Source: Escherichia coli (GTDB taxonomy: Bacteria; Pseudomonadota; Gammaproteobacteria; Enterobacterales; Enterobacteriaceae). From it: DNA of 64,000 nt. The stretch lies in assembly GCF_011045215.1 (NCBI RefSeq), contig NZ_CP049201.1. One strand, given 5' to 3'. The notes under the pieces are model-generated. The model was not told where the DNA came from, searched no databases, and saw only the letters and a list, made by a program, of their open reading frames with translations. Position 1 is the stretch's first letter. Each line of letters starts with the position of its first letter. Position numbers and translations under genes: made by a program. Below are positions 19,496 to 20,227 of this stretch, piece by piece.

Positions 19496-20227
19496 ATGAA
19501 AAAATGGAAAGTACGCAGCGCGTTGGTGGCATTAATCGTGCTGCTGGCCGGTTGTTCCAGTAATGCGCAGTATAATAGCAGTGCATCGGGCAATGTCGGC
19601 ACCGCCTGGGGTGGGGATGTGCACTCAACGGTTCAGGGCGTATCTGCTGAGCGAGCCTGGCGCGATCCGGCGGAGATGATCGTTATTAGTTATTCGACTA
19701 ATGTTCCTTCCGGCTACGACCGCGTTTATAGCATTCGTATTAACGAACTGGAATATGCTATTCGCGATGGTAATTTTAATTCTCTACCTATTACGCGTGT
19801 TTATGATTCATCTAATAATGAACCACGCTATATTGTCCATGCCAGAGTCGGAATGAATTATCAATTATATGTCCGTAATTACAGTCGTAACACCAACTAC
19901 GAGATCGTTGCTACGGTTGATGGCCTGGATGTGCTGAACGGCAAGCAAGGTTCGCTGAATAACAACGGCTATATTGTGAATGCCGGAGATTCTTTAGCGA
20001 TTAAAGGATTCCGCAAAGATAAACATACCGAAGCGGCTTTTCAGTTCGCCAACGTTGCTGATTCCTACGCAGCCAATTCGGCGCAAGGCGATGTGCGTAA
20101 TACCGGGGTAATCGGCTTTGCCGCCTTTGAATTACAAGGCCCGGCGCAAAACGCGCTGCCACCGTGCTCTGGACAAGCTTTTCCAGCAGATAACAATGGC
20201 TATGCGCCGCCACCGTGTCGGAAATAG
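19496..20227 (+). CDS. Lipoprotein of unknown function (accessory, AT-rich)
   Basis: 243 aa; signal peptide plus lipobox LLAGC; GAGGGAA RBS; coding sequence visibly AT-richer than flanking speA/speB; two Cys near C-terminus (PPCSGQ..PPPCRK). Confidence 0.7.
   Translation: MKKWKVRSALVALIVLLAGCSSNAQYNSSASGNVGTAWGGDVHSTVQGVSAERAWRDPAEMIVISYSTNVPSGYDRVYSIRINELEYAIRDGNFNSLPITRVYDSSNNEPRYIVHARVGMNYQLYVRNYSRNTNYEIVATVDGLDVLNGKQGSLNNNGYIVNAGDSLAIKGFRKDKHTEAAFQFANVADSYAANSAQGDVRNTGVIGFAAFELQGPAQNALPPCSGQAFPADNNGYAPPPCRK

What the first reader, a model, noticed from the sequence alone, without database searches (positions are those of the whole stretch)
19496..20227. AT-rich lipoprotein gene inserted between speA and speB
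A 243-aa ORF with a classical lipoprotein signal (LLAGC lipobox), its own RBS and flanking terminators sits between the arginine decarboxylase and agmatinase genes. Its coding sequence is visibly AT-richer than the neighbours, and as I recall K-12 has only a short speA-speB intergenic spacer, so this looks horizontally acquired. No recognizable catalytic motifs; the C-terminal part carries two Cys in a Pro-rich tail (PPCSGQAFPADNNGYAPPPCRK). It separates speA and speB, which may affect their co-expression.
Basis: partly seen in the sequence, partly recalled or inferred. Interest (0 to 1): 0.55.

Follow-up and report, generated by a model that had tools for sequence, protein, structure and literature searches.

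The report
Old envelope lipoprotein gene that K-12 lost
The gene between speA and speB is a real, conserved outer-membrane-type lipoprotein of unknown function that has sat at this spot since before Escherichia, Salmonella, Citrobacter and Klebsiella split, so K-12 lost it and this strain did not recently gain it.

Summary
The ORF at 19496-20227 (243 aa, lipobox LAGC, own RBS, terminators on both sides) is real. It is modestly AT-richer than its neighbours: GC 48.8% against 54-55%, GC3 47% against 61%. K-12 does have only a 137-bp speA-speB spacer.

The inference of recent horizontal acquisition fails.
- The gene is present in 3550 of 5426 complete E. coli genomes.
- It lies in the same place in other Escherichia species, Salmonella, Citrobacter, Klebsiella, Kluyvera, Kosakonia and Phytobacter.
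- Within Escherichia its synonymous divergence equals that of speA and speB (dS about 0.3), with dN/dS about 0.06.
- The low GC3 is shared by every ortholog examined.
- No mobility genes or insertion-type flanking repeats surround it.

The gene-less allele found in K-12 and 1867 genomes looks single-origin. Its promoter segment is only 66% identical to the E. coli gene-bearing allele, so it is probably an imported replacement.

The protein belongs to a very large family (about 4000 clusters at 50% identity) with no Pfam, NCBIfam, PADLOC, PHROG or PDB relative. It is predicted to be an all-beta sandwich. There is no conserved gene neighbour outside Enterobacteriaceae.

The best guess is an outer-membrane-anchored periplasmic binding module that is dispensable and not part of polyamine synthesis. 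Interest is modest.

The parts
17374..19350 (+). speA (biosynthetic arginine decarboxylase), the upstream neighbour
   Evidence: ORF list. Annotated as speA in matching RefSeq records.
19367..19409 (+). Intrinsic terminator of speA: a 15-bp stem, 4-nt loop and T-run. It is present only in the gene-bearing allele.
   Evidence: Terminator scan. Fold -20.6 kcal/mol, z -4.7. The stem is kept with compensatory changes in 11 genera or species.
19458..19463 (+). Candidate -10 hexamer (TACAAT) of the lipoprotein gene's own promoter, in an AT-rich spacer (GC 0.32)
   Evidence: The position is conserved in the cross-genus alignment of the speA-lipoprotein spacer. This is inference only. The consensus scan did not score a full promoter here.
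19467..19483 (+). Small palindrome TGCATT-AATTA-AATGCA abutting the RBS (19484-19489)
   Evidence: Read from the sequence. Conserved only within Escherichia. Function unknown.
19496..20227 (+). Lipoprotein gene ('T'), 243 aa. Signal peptide and lipobox aa 1-20, disordered linker about aa 21-33, beta-sandwich aa 34-213, flexible Cys-bracketed Pro-rich tail aa 214-243.
   Evidence: dN/dS about 0.06.
20237..20265 (+). Promoter-like hexamers TTGATG / 17 nt / GATAAT, probably the speB-proximal promoter
   Evidence: Scan. Both hexamers are conserved in most genera examined and in gene-less alleles, while the spacer between them diverges.
20293..20336 (+). Nearly invariant hairpin plus T7. It serves as the terminator for the lipoprotein gene and lies downstream of the promoter-like hexamers, so it would sit in the speB leader.
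   Evidence: Inverted repeat I1. Fold. Cross-genus alignment with a few compensatory changes. No Rfam family.
20363..21283 (+). speB (agmatinase), the downstream neighbour
   Evidence: ORF list. RefSeq annotation.

Best explanation
The ORF is a genuine, vertically inherited gene for an envelope lipoprotein. It is exported by Sec, lipidated at Cys20 and, with Ser at +2, most likely sorted by Lol to the inner leaflet of the outer membrane. A short disordered linker holds an all-beta sandwich domain in the periplasm. A Pro-rich C-terminal tail is closed by a disulfide in the enterobacterial forms. I infer that the domain acts as a non-catalytic binding module for a periplasmic or envelope ligand (peptide, protein or glycan). 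The inferred binding surface is the set of conserved polar and aromatic residues R53, Y66, Y122, N128, E136, D142, D145, Y159 and R173. The gene is an independent transcription unit lodged between the speA terminator and the speB promoter and hairpin, and it is not part of polyamine synthesis. The arrangement speA-T-speB is the old state in Escherichia and allied genera. K-12 and about a third of E. coli carry a single-origin allele in which the speA terminator, the gene and the adjoining promoter segment are replaced by 60 bp of diverged but homologous promoter sequence. That allele was probably imported by recombination and then spread between lineages. Shown: gene reality, distribution, synteny, selection, transcription signals, fold class. 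Inferred: localisation, binding role, origin of the gene-less allele.
Against: No experiment or characterised homolog supports any function. The nine invariant polar residues across very distant phyla would also fit an active site. I could not inspect model coordinates to see whether they cluster. Outer-membrane localisation rests only on the +2 rule. The donor of the gene-less allele was not found; the best non-E. coli match is 68%. An old balanced polymorphism or an unusual deletion with local remodelling therefore remains possible. Gene-less alleles with the same architecture exist in Citrobacter-like and more distant Enterobacterales contigs. The gene-less form may therefore be the deeper ancestral state of the order.
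Confidence: 0.6

Rival explanations
1. This is a recently acquired genomic islet. The lipoprotein gene was inserted by horizontal transfer into the speA-speB spacer of this E. coli lineage.
For: GC and GC3 are lower than in the neighbours. The gene is absent from K-12 and 34% of E. coli. Homologs sit at unrelated positions in other Proteobacteria.
Against: The gene is at the same position in all other Escherichia species sampled and in at least 8 other genera. Its dS equals that of the flanks. Low GC3 is shared by all orthologs. There are no mobility genes, tRNA or insertion-type direct repeats. The gene-bearing alleles show normal species diversity of 97-99.4%, while the gene-less segment is nearly monomorphic.
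Confidence: 0.03
2. The protein works in polyamine physiology, for example by binding or sensing agmatine or putrescine at the envelope. That role would explain why it is kept between speA and speB.
For: The position between speA and speB is stable across many enterobacterial genera. The protein has conserved acidic residues (E136, D142, D145) that could bind a polycation.
Against: The gene has its own terminator-bounded unit. Homologs outside Enterobacteriaceae are never next to spe genes. The gene is dispensable in K-12, the classical polyamine model, and in Citrobacter-like gene-less strains. Gene order in this region is conserved for all genes, so synteny is not evidence of a functional link.
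Confidence: 0.08
3. It is a periplasmic inhibitor or immunity-type lipoprotein, directed against a peptidoglycan hydrolase, lysozyme or a secreted toxin. It is kept or lost according to exposure.
For: It shows presence/absence dimorphism within E. coli and within Citrobacter-like lineages. It is a stand-alone gene, duplicated in tandem in Acinetobacter and Psychrobacter. In Variovorax it is followed within 5 bp by genes with Rap1a-like (faint) and SUFU-like Pfam hits, both immunity-associated families. Weak fold hits include tendamistat and effector-like sandwiches.
Against: No PADLOC hit and no other family hit. No toxin or effector gene is linked anywhere. Strong purifying selection and strictly vertical descent are unlike typical orphan immunity genes. 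The Variovorax context is from one clade only, and its Rap1a hit is flagged as faint.
Confidence: 0.12
4. It is an unrecognised periplasmic enzyme, for example one acting on peptidoglycan or another envelope glycan, with E136, D142 and D145 as catalytic residues.
For: There are 21 invariant positions, including E, D, D, R, R, N and three Y, across Proteobacteria, Myxococcota-like and Verrucomicrobia homologs.
Against: There is no sequence or fold similarity to any enzyme family. The fold class is typical of binding modules.
Confidence: 0.1

Closest known systems
Lol-sorted outer-membrane lipoproteins with a linker plus globular periplasmic domain (e.g. LpoB, YcfL/DUF1425)
Fungal DUF7918-domain proteins and unnamed fungal relatives (AlphaFold DB)
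   Different: No Pfam DUF7918 hit for this protein or for 58 family members scanned. The fungal proteins are not lipoproteins, and several carry zinc-finger domains (RING, GRF or C2H2). DUF7918 itself has no known function, and no paper was found.
MATH/TRAF-type peptide-binding beta-sandwiches
   Different: The scores are low, sequence identity is 2-11%, and there is no sequence signal. This is a resemblance of fold class only.
K-12 speA-speB intergenic region (137 bp)
   Same: The last 77 bp (hairpin, T-run, speB RBS) are identical. The promoter-like hexamers are at the same spacing.
   Different: K-12 lacks the speA-proximal terminator and the gene. Its promoter segment is only 66% identical.

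Membership tests
Bacterial lipoprotein (signal peptidase II substrate) | Basic n-region, hydrophobic h-region and lipobox [LVI][ASTVI][GAS]C near residue 15-25 | tested here: met
   MKKWKVRSALVALIVLLAGC. L17-A18-G19-C20 read. The Cys is conserved in at least 90% of 40 diverse homologs.
Bacterial lipoprotein (signal peptidase II substrate) | Actual lipidation and cleavage (globomycin sensitivity, palmitate labelling) | not testable with these tools
   Requires experiment.
Outer-membrane (Lol-sorted) lipoprotein | No Lol-avoidance signal (Asp at +2) after the lipidated Cys | tested here: met
   Residues +2 and +3 are Ser-Ser. Localisation itself was not tested.
Recently acquired genomic island | Absent from sister species or outgroups at the same locus | tested here: not met
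   Present at the same locus in E. whittamii, E. albertii, two further Escherichia species, Salmonella, Citrobacter, Klebsiella, Kluyvera and others.
Recently acquired genomic island | Mobility genes, a tRNA target or flanking direct repeats | tested here: not met
   None in the ORF list. The direct repeats found do not bracket the indel.
Recently acquired genomic island | Composition atypical for the host and not shared by orthologs | tested here: not met
   GC is 0.488 against a window median of 0.53. The same low GC3 (0.44-0.51) is seen in 9 of the 10 orthologs examined (the exception, Entomohabitans, 0.595, is still below its flanks), regardless of flank GC3 of 0.57-0.77.
Recently acquired genomic island | Divergence discordant with the flanking core genes | tested here: not met
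   dS is 0.32 for the gene, 0.28-0.32 for speA and 0.23-0.28 for speB within Escherichia.
speAB polyamine operon member | Co-transcription with speA/speB (no intervening terminators) | tested here: not met
   A strong terminator lies between speA and the gene, and a hairpin plus T7 lies between the gene and speB. This is a prediction only, with no transcript data.
speAB polyamine operon member | Linkage to spe genes wherever the family occurs | tested here: not met
   Linked only in Enterobacteriaceae. Elsewhere it stands alone, sits in the his operon, or lies next to unrelated genes.
Pfam DUF7918 | Significant match to the family HMM | tested here: not met
MATH/TRAF domain | Fold match well above noise, plus a sequence profile match | tested here: inconclusive
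Anti-phage defence or phage protein families | Match to a PADLOC or PHROG model | tested here: not met
   No PADLOC hit. The PHROG hits have E above 0.02 and cover only the N-terminal third, chiefly the signal peptide.

The most novel reading that the evidence does not exclude
The protein founds a very large, unnamed lipoprotein family (about 4000 clusters at 50% identity, including circularly permuted forms). Its fold is otherwise seen only in fungal DUF7918-type proteins. The with/without dimorphism is carried by a single gene-less allele that has moved between E. coli backgrounds, and it is mirrored inside Citrobacter. It could therefore reflect balancing selection on an envelope protein that serves as a target for a phage, bacteriocin or host factor. 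Separately, the invariant hairpin downstream of the conserved speB promoter could be an unrecognised regulatory leader for agmatinase.
Probability: 0.1. Interest if true: 0.6.

Novelty: new member of a known kind. Interest (0 to 1): 0.3.

Why it matters
This looks like a conserved enterobacterial envelope protein that has escaped study, probably because the laboratory reference strain lacks it. It is present in most pathogenic and commensal E. coli sampled here (O157:H7, ST95, ST1193 and ST648 by record names) and in Salmonella, Klebsiella and Citrobacter, yet it has no family assignment and I found no literature on it. It also warns against reading 'absent from K-12 plus lower GC' as horizontal gain, because here the reference carries the derived, probably imported, allele. 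Practically, the allele changes the signals between speA and speB. The gene-bearing allele has an extra strong terminator right after speA, so polyamine-gene regulation worked out in K-12 may not transfer unchanged to most E. coli.

Tried and rejected
**Family searches.**
- Pfam found nothing for the protein itself, for 40 homologs or for 18 distant and permuted homologs.
- NCBIfam gave only signal-peptide-level hits.
- PADLOC and PHROGs gave nothing usable.
- A PDB sequence profile search gave nothing.
- The 50 Foldseek AFDB50 matches listed are almost all unnamed family members.

**Gene-neighbourhood inference.** I analysed 80 genome loci plus Pfam-annotated contigs. No neighbour is shared across clades.

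**Literature.**
- Phrase searches around speA/speB found nothing on this gene.
- DUF7918 returned no paper.

**Insertion signatures.** The direct repeats found do not bracket the indel.

**Source of the K-12 60-bp segment.**
- It is not elsewhere in E. coli genomes.
- It does not match the speA-T spacer by eye.
- A metagenome pattern scan found gene-less alleles in other Enterobacterales but no close donor.

**Not achieved.**
- The codon adaptation index could not be computed because the reference table is missing from the sandbox. I used GC3 instead.
- Phylogroup mapping was not done systematically. I only have strain names from the hit tables.

Full report
**Observation.**
The ORF at 19496-20227 on the + strand exists as described: 243 aa, ATG to TAG. 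Its N-terminus MKKWKVRSALVALIVLLAGC is a textbook type II signal peptide with lipobox LAGC, and Ser follows the Cys. GAGGGA lies 6 nt upstream of the ATG. A 15-bp-stem terminator with a T-run sits right after speA at 19367-19400 (-20.6 kcal/mol, z -4.7). A second strong hairpin with T7 sits at 20293-20336, before speB. The gene has GC 0.488 and GC3 0.467, against 0.54-0.55 and 0.61 for speA and speB. It ranks 7th lowest GC and 4th lowest GC3 among 54 long ORFs of the window. The factual part of the finding is confirmed.

**Survey in E. coli.**
The 1012-bp stretch from the speA stop to the speB start is fully present in 3550 of 5426 complete genomes, at 97-99.4% identity. The remaining genomes match only the last 77 bp. 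K-12 J53 has a 137-bp spacer and no gene. A probe spanning the K-12 junction is contiguous in 1865 genomes. The K-12-specific 66 bp occur once each in 1867 genomes and nowhere else. By record names, gene-bearing genomes include O157:H7, ST95, ST1193, ST648 and ECOR29. By record names, gene-less genomes include K-12 derivatives, a BL21(DE3) derivative, O89m:H9 and ST167. I did not map phylogroups systematically. IS1 has hit the gene in at least two genomes.

**Direction of the change.**
The gene follows speA at the same distance in Salmonella. It lies between speA and speB in Klebsiella. A scan of one genome per species found speA-T-speB-loiP-tkt in E. whittamii, two other Escherichia species, Citrobacter, Kluyvera, Klebsiella, Intestinirhabdus, Phytobacter and Kosakonia. 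The same scan found T-speB-loiP-tkt on a truncated E. albertii contig and speA...T-speB...loiP in Entomohabitans. Against E. whittamii and another Escherichia species, the gene's dS is 0.32, compared with 0.28-0.32 for speA and 0.23-0.28 for speB. Its dN/dS is about 0.06. Its low GC3 (0.44-0.51) recurs in the orthologs of nine of the ten species compared (Entomohabitans 0.595, still below its flanks), even where the flanks reach GC3 0.74-0.77. There are no mobility genes and no repeats that bracket the indel. Recent horizontal gain is therefore not supported, and K-12 carries the derived state.

**The gene-less allele.**
It is not a clean deletion of the gene-bearing allele.
- The 57-60 bp after the K-12 speA stop align to the segment after the lipoprotein stop codon. 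They keep the hexamers CTTGA... / 17 nt / GATAAT but are only 66% identical.
- E. coli and E. whittamii gene-bearing alleles are 100% identical over the same segment.
- The flanking speA and speB differ by only 1-3% between the window and K-12.
- The whole 137-bp spacer is identical in K-12 and in strain JNE170426, whose flanks differ by about 2%.

This pattern fits a single allele that entered E. coli from a diverged source and then moved between backgrounds by recombination. Only the non-recombinable core would have stayed foreign. A metagenome pattern scan found alleles of the same architecture (speA stop, about 20 nt, promoter hexamers, hairpin) in other Enterobacterales. One contig has speA 97.8% identical to gene-bearing Citrobacter gillenii. 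Others are about 93% identical to C. portucalensis, and others about 79-88% identical to all references. None is closer than 68% to the K-12 segment, so the donor is unknown. Because distant contigs are gene-less, the gene may have been inserted once, long ago, in an ancestor of the Escherichia-Klebsiella-Kosakonia group. That is the only sense in which 'inserted' holds.

**Transcription anatomy.**
The speA-proximal terminator is conserved, with compensatory stem changes, across 11 species. A TACAAT-like -10 hexamer sits at a fixed distance from the ATG. After the gene come promoter-like hexamers at 20237-20265. They are conserved in most genera sampled and in most of the gene-less alleles. 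Next comes a hairpin whose sequence is almost invariant across five genera, with a few compensatory changes, and then speB. The gene is thus a self-contained unit. The gene-bearing allele adds a strong terminator after speA, while both alleles keep the speB-proximal promoter and hairpin. No Rfam family covers the hairpin.

**The protein.**
- *Family size.* Homologs are abundant: 286 by word-index search and 4067 cluster representatives by HMM. They span Gamma-, Beta- and Alphaproteobacteria, myxobacteria (Nannocystis, Chondromyces) with unassigned long-linker forms, and Verrucomicrobia.
- *Conservation.* Forty diverse members share 21 invariant positions. These include the block YE(I/V)VATVDGLDV..G..GS, then GY, I.GFRK and AAF.F, and a terminal AFP.D..YAPPP tail. 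Some homologs are circularly permuted, with the N-terminal GT.WGE segment placed after the core.
- *Database matches.* Nothing matches in Pfam, NCBIfam, PADLOC, PHROGs or PDB sequences.
- *Gene neighbours.* Outside Enterobacteriaceae there is no shared neighbour. The gene stands alone, is duplicated in tandem in Acinetobacter and Psychrobacter, or sits between hisD and hisC in Comamonadaceae.

**Mechanism.**
The best-supported reading is a lipidated, outer-membrane-anchored periplasmic beta-sandwich that binds a ligand through its conserved polar and aromatic residues. Its loss is tolerated. Localisation and the binding role are inferences.

The rivals are:
- a polyamine-related role, which rests on synteny only and is contradicted by stand-alone signals and by unlinked homologs;
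- an inhibitor or immunity protein, suggested by the dimorphism and the Variovorax neighbours but lacking any linked toxin and showing very conservative evolution;
- an unrecognised enzyme, suggested by the many invariant polar residues but with no enzyme-like fold.

**Novelty and score.**
The gene is already annotated as 'lipoprotein' or 'hypothetical protein' in thousands of genomes. Its family is unnamed and unstudied, and the allele history is, as far as I could find, undescribed. It is a new member of a known kind (envelope lipoproteins). I score interest at 0.3.

Noticed in passing
window 20237-20336: Promoter-like hexamers (TTGATG / 17 nt / GATAAT) are followed by an almost invariant hairpin plus T7, just upstream of speB. 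Both are conserved across Escherichia, Citrobacter, Klebsiella, Kluyvera and Intestinirhabdus and in gene-less alleles, while the surrounding sequence diverges. The stem shows a few compensatory changes. No Rfam family covers it. It could be a regulatory leader or attenuator for agmatinase.
   Followed up: partly
L001:2441-2500 (K-12 J53) versus window 20228-20292: The K-12 gene-less spacer carries about 60 bp that are only 66% identical to the E. coli gene-bearing segment, although the flanks differ by 1-3%. The segment is monomorphic across diverged backgrounds. Its donor or origin was not identified.
   Followed up: partly
L097 versus L012; L098/L104 versus L013: The same with/without dimorphism exists in Citrobacter. 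A gene-less metagenome contig has speA 97.8% identical to gene-bearing C. gillenii. Others are about 93% identical to gene-bearing C. portucalensis.
   Followed up: partly
window 21486-21610: There is one extra REP/BIME-like repeat unit (about 125 bp) between speB and loiP, compared with K-12 J53 and strain 108.
   Followed up: partly
H1 (NZ_CP104539.1) and L090 (NZ_AP045810.1): IS1 insertions hit the lipoprotein gene in two genomes. In strain 23CRST038 the gene is truncated, and its 3' part adjoins IS1 and the actS/ygeQ region, which indicates an IS1-mediated rearrangement.
   Followed up: no
proteins P0237, P0259, P0265: These are circularly permuted family members. The conserved GT.YGE...R segment, which is N-terminal in E. 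coli, follows the core domain and directly precedes the FP..RYAPPP tail.
   Followed up: no
L005 6001-7881 (Variovorax) and L047/L055/L039 (Acinetobacter, Psychrobacter): In Comamonadaceae the homolog sits inside the his operon between hisD and hisC. It is followed within 5 bp by a Rap1a-like (faint) gene and then by a SUFU-like gene. In Acinetobacter and Psychrobacter the gene is duplicated in tandem.
   Followed up: partly
window 698-4554: This is an AT-rich block (GC 0.42-0.46). Three of its four ORFs encode a DctPQM-type TRAP transporter and the fourth (698-1663) matched no family. These are the lowest-GC ORFs of the window.
   Followed up: no
L018 versus L017: A contig labelled Chryseobacterium sp. 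18061 has the same gene order as a Citrobacter sp. 18056 contig, and its lipoprotein match scores identically (64% identity, E 2e-102). This is probably contamination or mislabelling in the public record.
   Followed up: no
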